Shown piece by piece: positions 1 to 4,091 of a stretch of DNA of 4,108 nucleotides. The notes below the pieces were generated by a model. It had not been told where the DNA came from and did not search any database. It worked only from the letters and a program-made list of their open reading frames with translations. This DNA comes from a virus. Its lineage: Duplodnaviria > Heunggongvirae > Uroviricota > Caudoviricetes. The position numbers and the translations under genes were made by a program. Numbering within the stretch: the first letter of the stretch is position 1; the number at the start of each line of letters is the position of its first letter. The stretch is taken from IMG/VR virus record IMGVR_UViG_2585427761_000006; one strand, written 5' to 3'.

Positions 1-2243
1 TCCTGCTTCTGCATCTCCGTCAGGGTTTTCAGTTCGCCCTGCGCAGTCTGGTATTTCAGCTTCGCCAGCTCTGTATTCTGCCCCGCCAGTGCCAGTTGCT
101 CTTTCTGCTGCTTCAGCAGCCGGGAAAAACTGTCTTCCGCTTTTTCCGTCTCTGATTTTCCACCCCGGGATTTGGGTTTATTCGCCTCGTTATTGCGCCA
201 GGCTTCCAGGGCATTACTGATATAACGTTGTCTCGCCTCCTGATACGGTTCACCCACAAAACCGAGGTCATCCGCCGCATACCCCAGTCGGACACGCTCT
301 TTTTCTTCCCCTTTCAGTCTGGACAGGGCCAGCTCACGCTCTGTTTTTGTCAGGGCACTCTGCTGTTTATCATCCAGAGTGGCCTGTGGCAGCCGTAACG
401 GCACATTCACCAGTCCCTGCCGCTGCTGAAGCAGTTCATTACCCAGCCCCAGCAGACGGTTGAATTCCGTATGCTGACCATTCATAACCAGCATGGACTG
501 GTACACCTTATTCTGCTCTGCCGCCTGCTGACGAATTAACGCCACACGACGGTCTTCCAGCCCGGCAAGCACATCCTGAATGGACTGCGCTTTTTCCTGC
601 ATCTGTGCCAGACGGGACTGCTCAACGGCAAGCTGCTCTGTTGCCTGAGCAAGCCCTTCCGTTACGGTCTTCACCGAGGTCAGATGGTTTATCATGAATC
701 CGTCACCGGTCGTCCAGCCCGGGTTCGCCAGAACATACTGATATCCTGCGATTTTTTCCTGCAGGGATTTCACCCGACTGGCCTGTTCATCAATCAGCCG
801 GTTCTGCTCTGTCAGCGCCGCCCGTGTTCGTCCTTCATTATCTGAGGCTTCAGGCAAAGACATTGACGGCGTTTTATGCGCGATTTCATCTATCGTCAGT
901 GCATACTGGCGCGCAGACTCCCTGGCCTGCTCCTGATTCTGGTACAGCGTGTACCATGCTGCAGCCCCCAGCATCACCAGTCCGGGTACGCCACCAACCA
1001 GCCCCAGCGCACCGCTCATCAGACGTGAGCCCACCGCCGTTGTACTGTTCAGCGCATTCTGGGCGGCGCTTCTGGCAGCAATATTTCTGTTCAGGCGTTC
1101 CTGTGTGGCCGCCAGACGGGCCTCTGCAGCAATCTGCATCTCCGTCCCGCGGGCTGCCGCCACGGCCTGCTGAGCACGGTACACGGCTGCCCTTGCCCGC
1201 GCCGTGGCAATCTGCGTTCCCCTGAACTGTGCTTCCGCCAGTGCAACTTCATTACGTGCAGCCGTCACAAGTCCTGCCGTGGCAGACATCGCTCCGGAGG
1301 CCATATTGCCAAAGTACCGGGCAACCCCGACGGCAACCAGCGCGCCCACGGCTGTTGCCACATTATCAATCTGTCCGGCAACACCGTTCAGCACGCCGGA
1401 GAGCGTTTTCGTCACCCCGCTGGCCTCATTCGCACCACCCACCCAGGCCATAAAGGCGTTTTCCACCTTTGTGATCCCGTCAGAGACCGTTTCCGGCATG
1501 GCCGCGTATTCATCACGCAATACCTCCAGCTGGCTGATTAACGCAGGAACGACTTTATCCGCCGTCAGTTTGCCGTCGTCCGCCATCGCCTTAAGGTCTT
1601 TACGGGCCACGCCCATACCCGCAGCCAGTGCACGTACGATCCGGTCTCCGCTTTCATTGACCGAATTAAATTCCTCACCGCGTAACACACCCTGTGCCAG
1701 CGCCTGGCTGAACTGGGTGATCACCGAGCCCGCCTCTGCCGTACTGGCACCGGAGATTTTCAGCCCCGTGGAAATGGCCTCCGTCACCTTCAGCACATCA
1801 TCAGCACTGTAACCATATTCACGCATTGAGGCTGCCGAGCGGGCAAACAGGGCCGCATTATCTGAAAATGCCGTGCCCGTCCGCTGGCTGATATCCATCA
1901 GCACTTTCTGTGATGACGAAAATTCATCGGATGACTGCGACGCCTGTTTCAGTCGGGCATTCACGGAACTCCATTCATCGGCCAGAGAAATCAGGTGTCC
2001 GGTGGCAAAGGCACCTGCAAATGCCCCCGCCGTTCCGGCAGCTGAAGCGCGGATTTCCGTCAACTGGCTGTTCAGCTCAGCCAGGGCGCGTCGCTGCTCC
2101 CGGGCGACTGCGGCAGCCTGACGCCCGCCATTCTGCAGGGTCCGGTAATATTCACTGCCCATACGGGAAGCCCGCTGGATCTCCGACTGGAATGACTGCG
2201 AATTTGCCGAAATTTTGATAATCAGTTCACGTAACGTCGCCAT
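1..2243 (-). CDS. Phage tail length tape measure protein (lambda gpH-like), N-terminal 747 codons; 3' end lies beyond window position 1
   Basis: ATG at 2243..2241 (minus) preceded by GGAG at 2255..2252 with an 8-nt spacer. Manual reverse-complement translation gives MATLRELIIKISANSQSFQSEIQRASRMGSEYYRTLQNGG... and stays open to the window edge. Frame confirmed independently at 1500..1559 (DKVVPALISQLEVLRDEYAA), 661..720 (NPGWTTGDGFMINHLTS) and 3..59 (KLKYQTAQGELKTLTEMQKQ). Ala/Gln/Glu-rich, coiled-coil-like composition with a hydrophobic Gly/Ala/Leu segment is typical of tape measure proteins. Position directly downstream of G/GT matches lambda gene order. Confidence 0.85.
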   Translation of the reverse strand, partial: MATLRELIIKISANSQSFQSEIQRASRMGSEYYRTLQNGGRQAAAVAREQRRALAELNSQLTEIRASAAGTAGAFAGAFATGHLISLADEWSSVNARLKQASQSSDEFSSSQKVLMDISQRTGTAFSDNAALFARSAASMREYGYSADDVLKVTEAISTGLKISGASTAEAGSVITQFSQALAQGVLRGEEFNSVNESGDRIVRALAAGMGVARKDLKAMADDGKLTADKVVPALISQLEVLRDEYAAMPETVSDGITKVENAFMAWVGGANEASGVTKTLSGVLNGVAGQIDNVATAVGALVAVGVARYFGNMASGAMSATAGLVTAARNEVALAEAQFRGTQIATARARAAVYRAQQAVAAARGTEMQIAAEARLAATQERLNRNIAARSAAQNALNSTTAVGSRLMSGALGLVGGVPGLVMLGAAAWYTLYQNQEQARESARQYALTIDEIAHKTPSMSLPEASDNEGRTRAALTEQNRLIDEQASRVKSLQEKIAGYQYVLANPGWTTGDGFMINHLTSVKTVTEGLAQATEQLAVEQSRLAQMQEKAQSIQDVLAGLEDRRVALIRQQAAEQNKVYQSMLVMNGQHTEFNRLLGLGNELLQQRQGLVNVPLRLPQATLDDKQQSALTKTERELALSRLKGEEKERVRLGYAADDLGFVGEPYQEARQRYISNALEAWRNNEANKPKSRGGKSETEKAEDSFSRLLKQQKEQLALAGQNTELAKLKYQTAQGELKTLTEMQKQ

Positions 2244-2251
2244 TCACCTTT

Positions 2252-2255
2252 CTCC
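2252..2255 (-). promoter_or_regulatory. Shine-Dalgarno (GGAG) for the tape measure gene
   Basis: Minus-strand GGAG 8 nt upstream of ATG 2243. The AAGGTG at 2250..2245 is only 1 nt from the ATG and probably too close to act as the SD. Confidence 0.5.
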
Positions 2256-2259
2256 GGGC

Positions 2260-2281
2260 AAAAAAAACCGCCACAGCGGTT
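2260..2281 (-). terminator. Intrinsic-terminator-like hairpin plus U-tract between GT stop and tape measure start (minus-strand sense)
   Basis: Minus strand reads AACCGC-tgtg-GCGGTT (6-bp stem, 4-nt loop; plus coordinates 2281..2266) followed by a T-run (plus-strand A8 at 2260..2267). It sits between the GT stop (2292..2290) and the SD of the tape measure gene. The stem is short, so termination is probably partial. Confidence 0.4.
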
Positions 2282-2289
2282 CTCATCAT

Positions 2290-2909
2290 TCATGACAGTG
2301 CTGCAAAGCTCAGCGCGTCTTCCAGCGCCGCAAACGGATCCACCTCCGGCTTATCCTCATCCTCGCCCCAGCAGAGCATGGCGCCCTTCAGTGCAACATT
2401 CATCCCCTGTGCCCCAAAAACCGCTTTCACGATCTGTGCATTACGGATATCCCCGCGCTCATCACCCAGCGGGGATACCCTGTCGAACTCCATCCACATC
2501 ATCGCCTCGCTCGCACTCAGGCTGTGCCGCAGTTCGGATAAGGTGCGCCCCAGACGGAGCGCAAGTCGCATCAGAAAGCGAATTTCCGGGCGGGCTACTT
2601 TTTTCTGGCCGACTCTGCATCAGCGATCAGTTCCAGTGCCTGACGCAGCAACCGGGCATGTACCGGACCATAGACGGCCAGCACCTGCTCACGGTCGTCC
2701 GGAGCGAACACCCGCTGCAGATCAGTATCACACAGGACATCGCAGAACAGCGTCACATCCGCTTCCAGGTTACGGCGGGTTTTCGCCACCACCGACAGGG
2801 TATCGTCATCCTCTCCATCACCATTGAGCACTTCCTGCCACAGATACCAGGCCTCTGCCGAAGGCTCCCGCAGCACCACGCTGACATTACCCCATTCCGG
2901 CACCTTCAC
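2290..2909 (-). CDS. Tail assembly chaperone GT fusion (lambda G-T-like), made by programmed -1 ribosomal frameshift at 2598..2604; about 206 aa
   Basis: The 0-frame G ORF ends ...ADAESARKK-TAG with the heptamer A AAA AAG immediately before the stop. The -1 frame from that point is open (KK-VARPEIRFLMRLALRLGRTLSELRHS...ALS) to TGA at 2292..2290. Frame arithmetic: G codon high positions are 2 mod 3, T-frame positions are 0 mod 3, which is a -1 shift on the minus-strand mRNA. A G/GT frameshift between the major tail and tape measure genes is a conserved feature of long-tailed phages. Confidence 0.75.
2595..2909 (-). CDS. Tail assembly chaperone G (lambda gpG-like), 104 aa, GTG start
   Basis: ORF (M)KVPEWGNVSVVLREPSAEAWYLWQEVL...ADAESARKK. 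The N-terminal motif EWGNVSVVLREPSAEA resembles, from memory, lambda gpG (..EHNGVTVTLSELSALQ..). Acidic, short, located between major tail and tape measure genes. The start is uncertain: there is no in-frame ATG, GTG at 2909 is the first start after the in-frame stop at 2993..2991, and the SD is weak. Confidence 0.7.
   Translation of the reverse strand: MKVPEWGNVSVVLREPSAEAWYLWQEVLNGDGEDDDTLSVVAKTRRNLEADVTLFCDVLCDTDLQRVFAPDDREQVLAVYGPVHARLLRQALELIADAESARKK
2598..2604 (-). promoter_or_regulatory. Programmed -1 frameshift slippery heptamer A AAA AAG (X XXY YYZ) at the 3' end of G
   Basis: Minus-strand sequence GCC AGA AAA AAG TAG. It is the same heptamer as the E. coli dnaX frameshift site, and the 0-frame stop lies directly 3' of it. 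The -1 frame continues into the T domain. Confidence 0.7.
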
Positions 2910-2974
2910 CGTTTTATGACGAAACCCCGACAGTCTGGCCAGCGCCAGCGTTTTCAGATCTTTTGCAATAAGCC

Positions 2975-3222
2975 TTATCCGCCCGCACCACTAACCGTCA
3001 CGGTACACGCAACAGACGTAACACTCTGCGCTGTTCTGCAGAATCCGTCACCACGCAGGTATAATCCCCCTTATCACCTGACTGCGTATTGGCTTTACTG
3101 AAAGTGTCAGTAGTCTGCCCCTCAACCGGCTGACCATCCTTCTTCCAGGCGTATTTATAAGGCGGCGTTCCCCCGTTAACACTGACTGACATTGTCAGCA
3201 GCGCACCGGTATTCACGGTAAG
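2975..3222 (-). other. Ig-like domain of the major tail protein; its final beta-strand (2975..3034) is encoded in the -1 frame
   Basis: In-frame part (3222..3031): LTVNTGALLTMSVSVNGGTPPYKYAWKKDGQPVEGQTTDTFSKANTQSGDKGDYTCVVTDSAEQ. The frame with codon highs at 1 mod 3 from 3034 reads TAQSVTSVACTVTVSGAGG then TAA at 2977..2975. This is the canonical Ig G-strand (S-V-T-S...A-x-L/V-T-V) expected right after the YxC strand. Confidence 0.6.
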
Positions 3223-3690
3223 TGTCTTATCCAGATTTTTCACAAACGCCAGCGGTACCACAAAGGACACCGGTTTACCCTTCAGACGAAGTGAAAACGT
3301 TGCAGCCACCACGCCGTTGGTACCGGATGACCAGGTGTGCTGACGCACTTCCGCCAGGAACTTAAAGCCCTTACCGGACGGAAACAGCACCTTAAACGCA
3401 TACAACGCGTCATTGTCATAGGCATCACGCAGGGCGTTCTGGGCCTGATTCAGATAAAAATTACCCGACATGGAAATCTCAGACGACGCCCCCAGACCGT
3501 TGATGTTCTCCTGCTCTGTGGAGCAGAGCGTGGTCACATCAATATCCTGTTTCTGACCGGCGGTGAACTGGACTTCCTTGATGGTGCAGTCCAGGCGCAG
3601 ATATTCCGCCTTATCCATGGTTTCAGCAGTCGCCGGGGCAGATGAAATCATCACCTGCGTCAGCTGTGAACGTTCATACAAAGCAGACAT
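2998..3690 (-). CDS. Major tail (tube) protein with C-terminal Ig-like domain (lambda gpV position), 230 aa as encoded
   Basis: ATG at 3690..3688 with AGGAGG at 3700..3695 (4-nt spacer). Protein MSALYERSQLTQVMISSAPATAETMDKAEY... The C-terminal part TPPYKYAWKKDGQPVEGQTTDTFSKANTQSGDKGDYTCVVTDSA is a recognisable Ig-like module (W...DG...DxGxYTC). Position upstream of G/GT/tape measure fits. The ORF-track version starts 21 codons earlier at a GTG (3753) that crosses the hairpin and SD, which I reject. The C-terminal 15 residues (EQRRVLRLLRVP) look frameshifted; see findings. Confidence 0.85.
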   Translation of the reverse strand: MSALYERSQLTQVMISSAPATAETMDKAEYLRLDCTIKEVQFTAGQKQDIDVTTLCSTEQENINGLGASSEISMSGNFYLNQAQNALRDAYDNDALYAFKVLFPSGKGFKFLAEVRQHTWSSGTNGVVAATFSLRLKGKPVSFVVPLAFVKNLDKTLTVNTGALLTMSVSVNGGTPPYKYAWKKDGQPVEGQTTDTFSKANTQSGDKGDYTCVVTDSAEQRRVLRLLRVP

Positions 3691-4091
3691 TCTGCCTCCT
3701 GATAATAAAAAACCCGCACGCGGCGGGGTATGGTTCTGTAGAAAAAAGTACACCGTGACCTGAAACTCCAGGGTTGCACGGTAACAGCGGTTTTCCGGAA
3801 TATAGTCTGCATTTCACTGACGGATCCCGGGGCCAGCAGCATTATGGCTTCACGGGCGTCCTGACGTATCTGACGCGCCTGCGTCACAGTCCCGGCATAA
3901 ACGTCTATCTGCACCGACACTGAGGACTCCGCCTGCCCGCCCATCACGTCCGCAGACACCGATGAAATCAGGCTGAAAACCACCCACGGAAGCGCCACCG
4001 ACGGCCTGCCATCCAGCAGGGGGACCACATACGGGTACACCTGCCCGCCGGCAAGATGCGCCAGATGAGGATACAAATCCGCCTCCGTCAT
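3660..4091 (-). CDS. Putative tail terminator / tail completion protein (lambda gpU position); 3' end uncertain
   Basis: ATG at 4091..4089 with an in-frame stop 12 nt upstream. Protein MTEADLYPHLAHLAGGQVYPYVVPLLDGRPSVALPWVVFSLISSVSADVMGGQAESSVSVQIDVYAGTVTQARQIRQDAREAIMLL... has a beta-rich small-protein character and sits immediately upstream of the major tail gene. The last ~34 codons (..SFRSRCTFFYRTIPRRVRVFYYQEAECLLCMNVHS) run through the hairpin/U-tract and SD and overlap the major tail gene by 31 nt, and look non-native. Confidence 0.55.
   Translation of the reverse strand: MTEADLYPHLAHLAGGQVYPYVVPLLDGRPSVALPWVVFSLISSVSADVMGGQAESSVSVQIDVYAGTVTQARQIRQDAREAIMLLAPGSVSEMQTIFRKTAVTVQPWSFRSRCTFFYRTIPRRVRVFYYQEAECLLCMNVHS
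3695..3700 (-). promoter_or_regulatory. Shine-Dalgarno (AGGAGG) for the major tail protein gene
   Basis: Minus strand AGGAGGcagaATG. Perfect SD complement, 4-nt spacer. Confidence 0.6.
3707..3727 (-). terminator. Intrinsic-terminator-like hairpin plus U-tract directly upstream of the major tail gene SD (minus-strand sense)
   Basis: Minus strand reads CCCGC-cgcgt-GCGGG (5-bp all-GC stem; plus coordinates 3727..3713) followed by TTTTTT (plus-strand A6 at 3707..3712), then ATTATC, AGGAGG and ATG. The plus-strand sense lacks a T-tract after the stem, so it is orientation-specific. Confidence 0.45.

What the first reader, a model, noticed from the sequence alone, without database searches (positions are those of the whole stretch)
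2975..3060. Final beta-strand of the major tail protein Ig-like domain is out of frame (probable 1-nt indel near 3034..3036)
Seen directly: the in-frame protein runs ...GDKGDYTCVVTDSA-EQRRVLRLLRVP-stop (TGA 3000..2998), an Arg/Leu-rich tail that does not look like an Ig strand. The -1 frame starting at 3034 encodes TAQSVTSVACTVTVSGAGG-stop (TAA 2977..2975), a textbook Ig G-strand, immediately after the conserved DxGxYTC F-strand. The two frames are bridged by only 2 nt (3036..3035) where 3 are expected, so the simplest explanation is loss of one base in GCAGAACAG (for example GAAACA to GAACA). There is no X XXY YYZ slippery heptamer here, so a programmed shift is unlikely. Either this copy carries a genuine lesion in the decoration domain or it is an assembly error. 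From established knowledge, the C-terminal Ig-like domain of lambda gpV is dispensable for viable tails, so a prophage could tolerate this. A side effect is that the apparent V-to-G spacer is 88 nt rather than 65 nt.
Basis: partly seen in the sequence, partly recalled or inferred. Interest (0 to 1): 0.6.

Follow-up and report, generated by a model that had tools for sequence, protein, structure and literature searches.

The report
One-base deletion truncating prophage tail-tube protein
A single missing base near the end of a prophage tail-tube gene in one draft E. coli assembly puts the last strand of its small surface domain out of frame; this is an ordinary broken gene or an assembly error, not a new mechanism.

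Summary
The minus-strand major tail subunit gene (3690..2998) ends in ...TDSAEQRRVLRLLRVP*. The -1 frame carries QSVTSVACTVTVSGAGG* (stop 2977..2975), which is the conserved end of this protein family. Homologues read CAGCCGCAG where the window reads CAGCGCAG. The repaired protein is 238 aa, ...TDSAEQPQSV..., the same length as its homologues.

All 60 evenly sampled complete E. coli genomes (of 2,467 copies) have the extra base. There is no slippery site, so a programmed frameshift is rejected.

The window is the whole contig JOQE01000092 of E. coli 3-475-03_S3_C2 (ST29; 100-bp Illumina reads, MaSuRCA). A second contig of the same assembly repeats 1,655 bp verbatim, lesion included. No other record holds the truncated protein, and none holds any repaired version.

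Neighbouring genes are damaged too: a gp17 frameshift and stop loss, and an ATT start on the chaperone G gene. A real lesion in a decaying prophage (about 0.5) and a consensus error in collapsed prophage repeats (about 0.4) cannot be separated without the reads.

Interest is low.

The parts
2998..3690 (-). Major tail subunit (lambda gpV-like tube protein) CDS as written, 230 aa. GenBank KEK74928/KEK75360, named 'immunoglobulin I-set domain protein'.
   Evidence: Homologues are annotated 'major tail subunit'. The AF2 model of the intact homologue P0002 has lambda tube protein V (7t4f) as its best PDB fold match, E 4.8e-9.
3250..3690 (-). N-terminal tail-tube domain (about residues 1-147), intact.
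   Evidence: 100% identical at protein level over the aligned N-terminal part (about 160 residues) to another database allele, P0026. Pfam Phage_TTP_11 and Phage_tail_2 hits fall just below cut-off. Fold match to the lambda gpV tube domain.
2975..3249 (-). C-terminal Ig-like (I-set/Ig_3 type) decoration domain, split over two frames by the lesion.
   Evidence: Pfam Ig_3 34.8 bits (cut-off 30), Ig_2 and I-set. PDB profile hits to phage Ig-like domains 9ncf, 9c2d and T5 pb10 5lxk run to the last profile position. In the AF2 model, blocks from residue 141 have mean pLDDT 80-95, with strand F at 208-215 and strand G at 223-225 plus 229-234.
3030..3031 (-). Site of the one-base deletion. Homologues have CAG CCG CAG (or AAR GCA CAG); the window has CAG-CG-CAG.
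   Evidence: Alignments. All 60 evenly sampled complete-genome homologues are one base longer over 3075..3000.
2998..3030 (-). Aberrant out-of-frame tail RRVLRLLRVP plus TGA.
   Evidence: No homologue conserves it.
2975..3028 (-). Stranded remnant of the ancestral frame, QSVTSVACTVTVSGAGG plus TAA (Ig strand G and C-terminus).
   Evidence: Against the O157-type allele it carries 4 synonymous and 3 nonsynonymous codon changes in the restored frame and no stop codon.
2595..2969 (-). Tail assembly chaperone G. The start codon reads ATT (2969..2967) where all 9 compared alleles have ATG.
   Evidence: The change is shared with the second contig, L006.

Best explanation
The gene is the lambda-gpV-like major tail tube protein of an HK97-gp10/gp17-type lambdoid prophage (Stx-phage / BP-4795-like tail module) in E. 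coli 3-475-03_S3_C2.

Relative to every homologue, one C of a CC pair at 3031/3030 (codon 221) is missing. Translation therefore leaves the ancestral frame just after Ig strand F, adds ten unrelated residues (RRVLRLLRVP) and stops 8 codons early. Strand G and the C-terminus remain untranslated in the -1 frame.

Shown:
- The deletion is private to this assembly.
- It is not conserved in any homologue.
- There is no recoding signal at the site.

Inferred: the change is most likely a genuine, evolutionarily very recent inactivating mutation in a prophage tail module that is decaying. The adjacent chaperone G gene has lost its ATG. This copy's gp17 gene carries a frameshift and has lost its stop codon. 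Four of the five private substitutions in the contig are non-neutral.

The predicted product keeps an intact tube domain. It carries an Ig-like domain that cannot close its beta-sandwich, so at best it would give tails with a defective decoration domain.

This reading is only slightly favoured over an assembly artefact (see the rival explanations).
For: - Deletion and frame.
- 60 of 60 sampled complete-genome homologues have the extra base.
- The conserved C-terminal strand is present in 32 homologues.
- Strand G maps to residues 223-234 in the AF2 model of the intact homologue.
- The restored frame shows 4 synonymous and 3 nonsynonymous changes and no stops, so the lesion is recent.
- Neighbouring lesions point to real decay. 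G start ATG to ATT is shared by both contigs. gp17 has a frameshift at 3807 and a TAA to TAC stop loss.
- The private substitutions are 1 synonymous, 2 nonsynonymous, 1 start-loss and 1 stop-loss. That pattern suggests relaxed selection and is hard to produce from Illumina consensus errors.
- Pseudogenes are common in this module in finished genomes: portal and tape-measure genes flagged as pseudogenes, and frameshifted V proteins such as P0108, with 270 members on contigs up to 5.5 Mb.
- The reads were Illumina HiSeq, a platform on which one-base indel errors at a CC pair are rare (my own knowledge).
Against: - The lesion exists only in one short-read draft assembly.
- The two contigs that carry it are identical over 1,655 bp, so they may be one collapsed consensus used twice rather than two independent observations.
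- No clonal sibling isolate exists to confirm it. Six isolates came from this child and none share a lineage.
- Both coding deletions (3807 and 3031) fall exactly on positions where natural alleles differ by a substitution: GGA/GAA/GAG and CCG/GCA. A consensus of mixed alleles could turn such positions into gaps.
- Neither the truncated allele nor any repaired version is found anywhere else.
Confidence: 0.5

Rival explanations
1. Assembly or consensus artefact. The strain (ST29, 5.45 Mb, 203 contigs) probably carries several near-identical lambdoid tail modules. The MaSuRCA/Celera consensus of 100-bp reads merged paralogous alleles in this repeat and dropped a base where they disagree. On this reading the true gene or genes are intact.
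For: - Sequencing and assembly method and strain statistics.
- Related complete genomes carry up to 8 copies of the module.
- The window is a 4.1-kb repeat contig, and a second contig repeats 1,655 bp verbatim, including the lesion.
- Over 3075..3000 the allele is below 90% identical to all 2,467 copies in complete genomes.
- In the last 100 nt or so every variable site carries either the O157-type or the P0002-type state, with no private substitution.
- The missing base sits at a C/G difference between those two types, and the 3807 deletion sits at a G/A difference.
- None of the 7 possible repaired proteins is in a collection of 15 billion proteins.
- From memory, not tested here: MaSuRCA's recommended bacterial setting tolerates very divergent contig overlaps (cgwErrorRate 0.25).
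Against: - Illumina data rarely produce one-base deletions.
- The runs test for a fine-scale blend is not discriminating. The natural allele L009 is interleaved to a similar degree.
- The intergenic 'deletion' at 3733 turns out to be a natural polymorphism, also present in the complete genome of strain M1/5.
- The private substitutions ATG to ATT, D to G in T and D to E in the tape measure cannot come from blending known alleles. They suggest a real, diverging, decaying lineage.
Confidence: 0.42
2. Programmed -1 ribosomal frameshift or transcriptional slippage. This would make two isoforms, as when Ig-like or FN3 domains are appended by recoding in SPP1 gp17.1*, the Listeria phages A118/A500/PSA, T3 and Lactobacillus phage A2.
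For: Such recoding is well documented for phage Ig-like extensions (PMC5009743; PMC8718954). The required shift direction here is -1.
Against: - There is no X XXY YYZ heptamer or homopolymer run in GAT TCT GCA GAA CAG CGC AGA.
- The shift would fall inside the domain, before its last strand, not at a domain boundary.
- All homologues examined are in a single frame.
- The window's real programmed site, G-T at A AAA AAG, looks quite different.
Confidence: 0.02
3. The Arg/Leu-rich tail is a genuine, selected alternative C-terminus of the tube protein.
For: None beyond the open reading frame itself.
Against: No homologue conserves it. The out-of-frame remnant still shows a coding pattern of substitutions and no stop codon. 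The exact protein occurs only in this assembly.
Confidence: 0.01

Closest known systems
Major tail subunit of Stx-converting and related lambdoid prophages (phage BP-4795 ORF64; EDL933 WP_001275506; TW08637 WP_001275471)
   Same: 96-97% nucleotide identity over the gene. Same gene order: gp10-like, gp17, V, G, T, tape measure. Same 238-aa length once repaired. Same two-domain architecture.
   Different: The window lacks one C at codon 221 and so loses strand G. Its Ig-domain allele is not found elsewhere: at most 94.7% identity over 301 nt and 89.6% over 76 nt.
Bacteriophage lambda gpV (tube domain plus C-terminal Ig-like domain; PDB 7t4f, 6p3e)
   Same: Best PDB fold match of the intact homologue's model, covering both domains. 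It has the same position in the tail gene cluster. Its C-terminal domain can be removed and tails still form.
   Different: Only about 16% sequence identity. The lambda domain belongs to the Big_2 family, whereas this one scores as I-set/Ig_3.
Frameshift-appended Ig/FN3 extensions (SPP1 gp17.1*, Listeria A118/A500/PSA Tsh, T3 capsid 10B, Lactobacillus A2)
   Same: A C-terminal Ig-type module of a structural protein lies in a different frame from the upstream part.
   Different: Those shifts are conserved, sit at slippery sites and add a whole domain. This one is private to one assembly, has no slippery site and cuts a domain before its last strand.
Frameshifted V pseudogenes in other E. coli prophages (for example clusters P0108, P0118, P0022, P0026, P0141)
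   Same: Same gene, interrupted by single-base frameshifts, in both finished and draft genomes.
   Different: The frameshifts are at different positions. None shares the lesion at codon 221.

Membership tests
Lambda-like siphophage major tail tube protein with C-terminal Ig-like domain | N-terminal tail-tube (TTP) fold | tested here: met
   Pfam Phage_TTP_11 (24.4 bits, cut-off 28.4) and Phage_tail_2 (22.7 bits, cut-off 23.8) fall just below cut-off. The AF2 model of the 94%-identical intact homologue has lambda gpV as its top PDB match (7t4f, E 4.8e-9; also 7t2e, 8k36).
Lambda-like siphophage major tail tube protein with C-terminal Ig-like domain | Position between the tail terminator/completion gene and the G/T chaperone genes, upstream of the tape measure | tested here: met
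   Gene calls with Pfam families on the contig: Tail_completion_gp17, V, Phage_TAC_1, Phage_tail_T, TMP_3. Homologues are annotated the same way.
Lambda-like siphophage major tail tube protein with C-terminal Ig-like domain | Complete C-terminal Ig-like beta-sandwich, including the final strand G | tested here: not met
   As written, the frame leaves at codon 221 and strand G (residues 223-234 of the model) is replaced by RRVLRLLRVP. The feature is met only after inserting one base.
Programmed-frameshift Ig/FN3 extensions of phage structural proteins | Slippery sequence at the shift site | tested here: not met
   No X XXY YYZ heptamer and no homopolymer run in 3045..3022.
Programmed-frameshift Ig/FN3 extensions of phage structural proteins | Two-frame organisation conserved among relatives | tested here: not met
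   60 of 60 sampled complete-genome copies, and all aligned alleles and phages, are in a single frame with one more base.
Programmed-frameshift Ig/FN3 extensions of phage structural proteins | Two protein products detected in virions | not testable with these tools
   Needs proteomics of induced particles.
Prophage pseudogene (genuine frameshift mutation) | Disrupting lesion relative to intact orthologues | tested here: met
Prophage pseudogene (genuine frameshift mutation) | Lesion present in the organism's DNA (read support or independent assembly) | not testable with these tools
   Only one assembly carries it. The second contig is identical over 1,655 bp and may not be independent. There are no clonal sibling isolates.
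Tail assembly chaperone G/G-T -1 programmed frameshift (control, same window) | Slippery heptamer near the end of G, with the -1 frame open through T | tested here: met
   A AAA AAG lies at 2604..2598. The -1 frame is open from 2598 to the T stop at 2292..2290 and contains the Phage_tail_T ORF.

The most novel reading that the evidence does not exclude
The deletion is real, and low-level spontaneous -1 shifting or transcriptional error in the GAA-CAG-CGC region restores a minority of full-length tube protein. Tails would then carry a mixture of subunits with complete and defective Ig-like domains, an accidental analogue of SPP1 gp17.1/gp17.1*. A milder version is that the window carries a genuinely new, unsampled recombinant allele of the tail Ig-like domain.
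Probability: 0.02. Interest if true: 0.3.

Novelty: already known. Interest (0 to 1): 0.06.

Why it matters
It matters little for biology. Frameshifted tail genes in E. coli prophages, and indels in short-read contigs from multi-copy prophage regions, are both routine.

There is some practical value for annotation:
- KEK74928/KEK75360 should be treated as a frameshifted major tail subunit, not as a distinct 'I-set domain protein'.
- The chaperone G gene starts at 2969 (ATT), not at GTG 2909.
- gp17 on this contig is disrupted.

If the lesions are real, this tail module cannot make normal tails, so the prophage is unlikely to yield infectious particles on its own.

Tried and rejected
1. Programmed frameshift. 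Rejected: there is no slippery site, homologues are in frame and the shift falls inside the domain.

2. Pfam on repaired versus truncated protein as a discriminator. Both pass the Ig_3, Ig_2 and I-set cut-offs with nearly the same scores, so the test is uninformative.

3. Search for an intact copy of this exact allele. Nothing was found in any of these:
- exact look-up of all 7 possible repaired proteins;
- exact 35-41-nt DNA patterns in IMG/VR, JGI metagenomes and GTDB representatives;
- BLAST against phages and 5,426 complete E. coli genomes;
- a protein search with the repaired Ig domain.

4. Test of the idea that the allele is a fine-scale blend of two known allele types, using a runs test. 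The window has 19 runs against 21 expected at random, but the natural allele L009 looks similar, so the test is not discriminating.

5. Excess of indels over substitutions as evidence for an artefact. This argument weakened once the 3733 'deletion' was found in a finished genome (strain M1/5). What remains is 2 coding indels against 5 private substitutions.

6. Confirmation from sibling isolates of the same child. None is clonal with this strain.

7. Identification of the origin in the GTDB representatives. This failed. The origin was found through the exact-protein look-up instead.

Full report
WHAT THE WINDOW IS

The window is the reverse complement of the complete 4,108-bp contig JOQE01000092.1 of assembly GCA_000713935.1, Escherichia coli 3-475-03_S3_C2. 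The strain is a commensal ST29, phylogroup B1, O71:H8 isolate from a Tanzanian child. Its genome is 5.45 Mb in 203 contigs. It was sequenced as 100-bp Illumina HiSeq 2000 reads and assembled with MaSuRCA 2.3.2 (PMC6222053).

On the minus strand the window carries a lambdoid tail module:
- tail completion/terminator gp17 (from 4091);
- the major tail subunit 'V' (3690..);
- the chaperones G (2969..2595) and T (to 2290);
- the first 747 codons of the tape measure protein (2243..1).

These assignments rest. Over the V gene region (window 2900..3760) it is 96-97% identical to Stx-converting phages, phage BP-4795 and O157/O26 prophages. The best whole-window match is 98.4%, to strain TW08637.

THE OBSERVATION

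The V ORF as written (3690..2998, 230 aa) ends ...GDKGDYTCVVTDSAEQRRVLRLLRVP*. The -1 frame from 3028 reads QSVTSVACTVTVSGAGG*, with TAA at 2977..2975.

Alignment with BP-4795, EDL933, TW08637, RM10386, strain 114 and alleles of a second type shows a single missing base. Homologues have GAA CAG CCG CAG (or GAG AAR GCA CAG); the window has GAA CAG -CG CAG. The lost base is therefore a C next to C3030. Inserting one C restores a 238-aa protein, the length of all close full-length homologues.

In an alignment of 32 full-length homologues down to 56% identity, spanning Escherichia, Klebsiella, Enterobacter, Pectobacterium, Dickeya and Erwinia, the terminal motif (I/V)TSxxCTVT(V/I) is conserved in nearly all. 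Only the window's protein deviates.

An AlphaFold model of the 94%-identical intact homologue P0002 places strand F at 208-215 (GKYTCVVT) and strand G at 223-225 plus 229-234. Blocks of ten residues from 141 onward have mean pLDDT 80-95. The shift at codon 221 therefore removes the whole of strand G. The best PDB fold match is lambda tube protein V (7t4f, E 4.8e-9). Profile hits to solved phage Ig-like domains (9ncf, 9c2d, T5 pb10 5lxk) run through the last strand.

IS IT CONSERVED OR PROGRAMMED?

No. The 76-nt stretch 3075..3000 finds 2,467 copies in 1,240 complete E. coli genomes. In 60 records sampled evenly down the ranking, every match is exactly one base longer than the query.

The codons GAT TCT GCA GAA CAG CGC AGA contain no slippery heptamer and no homopolymer run. 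The shift also lies inside the domain, not at a domain boundary. Ig-like extensions made by programmed frameshifting are well known (SPP1 gp17.1*, Listeria phages, T3, A2; PMC5009743, PMC8718954). They add whole domains at conserved slippery sites. The window's own genuine recoding site, A AAA AAG at 2604..2598 joining G to T, is present and looks as expected.

IS IT A REAL MUTATION OR AN ASSEMBLY ERROR?

The truncated 230-aa protein occurs only in this assembly, on two contigs. The second contig, JOQE01000087 (L006), is identical to the window from 3727 to 2073, a stretch of 1,655 bp that includes the lesion. It differs from the window on both sides of that stretch. The two occurrences may therefore be one repeat consensus placed twice.

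None of the 7 possible repaired proteins exists in the 15-billion-protein collection. Exact patterns downstream of the lesion are absent from IMG/VR, JGI metagenomes and GTDB representatives. No complete genome is more than 94.7% identical over the Ig part, or more than 89.6% over the 76-nt stretch.

Two natural allele types dominate the C-terminus: the O157 type (...EQPQSITSDACTVTVNGAGG) and the P0002 type (...EKAQSVTSVECTVTVSAAAG). Apart from the missing base, the window's last 100 nt or so carries either one type's state or the other's at every variable site, with no private substitution. The missing base falls exactly where the two types differ, C against G. The window-only deletion in gp17 (GCAGGAC to GCAGAC at 3807) likewise falls on a hypervariable codon, GGA/GAA/GAG. 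A consensus built from mixed paralogous alleles could produce this. Related genomes carry up to 8 copies of the module.

Several points argue against that view:
- A runs test does not separate the window from a natural mosaic allele.
- The apparent deletion at 3733 is a natural polymorphism, also present in the finished genome of strain M1/5.
- The contig's five private substitutions are 1 synonymous (3178), D to G in T (2384), D to E in the tape measure (249), loss of the G start codon (ATG to ATT, 2967) and loss of the gp17 stop (TAA to TAC, 3748). This pattern suggests relaxed selection in a decaying prophage. Blending known alleles cannot create it, and Illumina consensus errors are an unlikely source.
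- Pseudogenes are common in this module even in finished genomes.
- In the restored frame, the 17 codons after the lesion show 4 synonymous and 3 nonsynonymous differences from the O157 type and no stop codon. If real, the lesion is very recent.

I put a genuine lesion at about 0.5 and an artefact at about 0.42. Only the reads can decide.

CONSEQUENCE IF REAL

The tube domain (about residues 1-147) is intact. Natural relatives of 147 aa lack the Ig domain altogether (P0115 and others). Lambda gpV without its C-terminal domain still forms tails at about 100-fold lower activity. The truncated protein could therefore in principle still polymerise, with an unfoldable decoration domain (inference). 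With the chaperone G start codon changed to ATT, and gp17 broken on this contig, the module as written is unlikely to build normal tails.

Three details need correcting.
- The site is 3031/3030, not 3034..3036.
- The restored sequence is TDSAEQPQSV, not TDSA-x-TAQSV.
- The V-to-G spacer is 5 nt when repaired and 28 nt as written, not 65 and 88 nt. G begins at 2969, not at GTG 2909.

The suggested Pfam test does not discriminate.

VERDICT

This is an ordinary single-base disruption of a well-known prophage gene, private to one draft assembly. It is not a new kind of feature, and its interest is low.

Noticed in passing
window 3807 and 3750..3748 (minus strand, gp17 gene 4091..): The tail completion gene gp17 is also broken on this contig. 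One G is missing (GCAGGAC to GCAGAC), which shifts the frame after ...SEMQ. The normal stop, TAA or TGA, reads TAC. If the G is restored, gp17 reads through in frame into the major tail gene. The second contig of the same assembly (L006) has an intact 114-aa gp17.
   Followed up: partly
window 2969..2967 (minus strand): The tail assembly chaperone G gene starts with ATT where all nine compared alleles have ATG. The change is private and is shared with contig JOQE01000087. On that contig the called G gene (124 aa) begins at this ATT; on this contig the call is a shorter 94-aa product. The ORF finder's GTG at 2909 is not the homologous start.
   Followed up: partly
window 2604..2598 and 2598..2290 (minus strand): The canonical G/G-T programmed -1 frameshift site is present. 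The slippery heptamer A AAA AAG sits just before the G stop (TAG 2597..2595), and the -1 frame is open through the Phage_tail_T ORF to 2292..2290.
   Followed up: yes
L006 (JOQE01000087.1) against window 3727..2073: A second contig of the same assembly is 100% identical to the window over 1,655 bp (V, G, T and the start of the tape measure). It diverges in an 80-nt patch (3808..3728) and in the tape measure (2072..1394). This is either a collapsed repeat used twice or two prophages homogenised by gene conversion.
   Followed up: partly
window 3727..3713 plus T-run to about 3703 (minus strand): A terminator-like GC hairpin (CCCGC-CGCGT-GCGGG) followed by TTTTTTATTA lies between gp17 and the major tail gene. 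It is conserved in all homologues aligned. The scan as a whole is not above the shuffle expectation.
   Followed up: partly
window 3750..3728 and 2974..2970; loci L003, L004, L008, L014-L016: Both intergenic junctions are naturally polymorphic for indels. A 7-8-nt CTTTTT(T) tandem unit lies after the gp17 stop, with CC or CCC at 3733. A 9-nt insertion (GGATGGGTCA-type) lies between the V stop and the G start in P0002-type prophages.
   Followed up: partly
proteins P0016, P0023, P0051, P0108, P0118, P0022, P0026, P0141, P0144: Many other assemblies carry differently placed frameshifts in gp17 or V. They include gp17-V fusion ORFs of 294-374 aa and a 135-aa truncated V with 270 member sequences, on contigs up to 5.5 Mb. 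Some are probably real pseudogenes. Others, such as the original EDL933 annotation and error-prone long-read assemblies, are probably sequencing errors.
   Followed up: no
proteins P0115, P0116, P0125-P0134 (about 147 aa): Relatives that are about 80% identical in the tube domain end right after it (…LKGKPENIESGS) and have no Ig-like domain. The decoration domain is therefore naturally optional in this family.
   Followed up: no
window 3153..2981: The Ig-domain allele is not sampled elsewhere. It is at most 94.7% identical over 301 nt, and at most 89.6% over 76 nt, to any of roughly 2,500-2,900 copies in complete E. coli genomes. It looks intermediate between the O157-type and P0002-type alleles. 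Amino-acid differences cluster in the Ig-like domain (residues 180, 209, 213, 224, 227, 234).
   Followed up: partly
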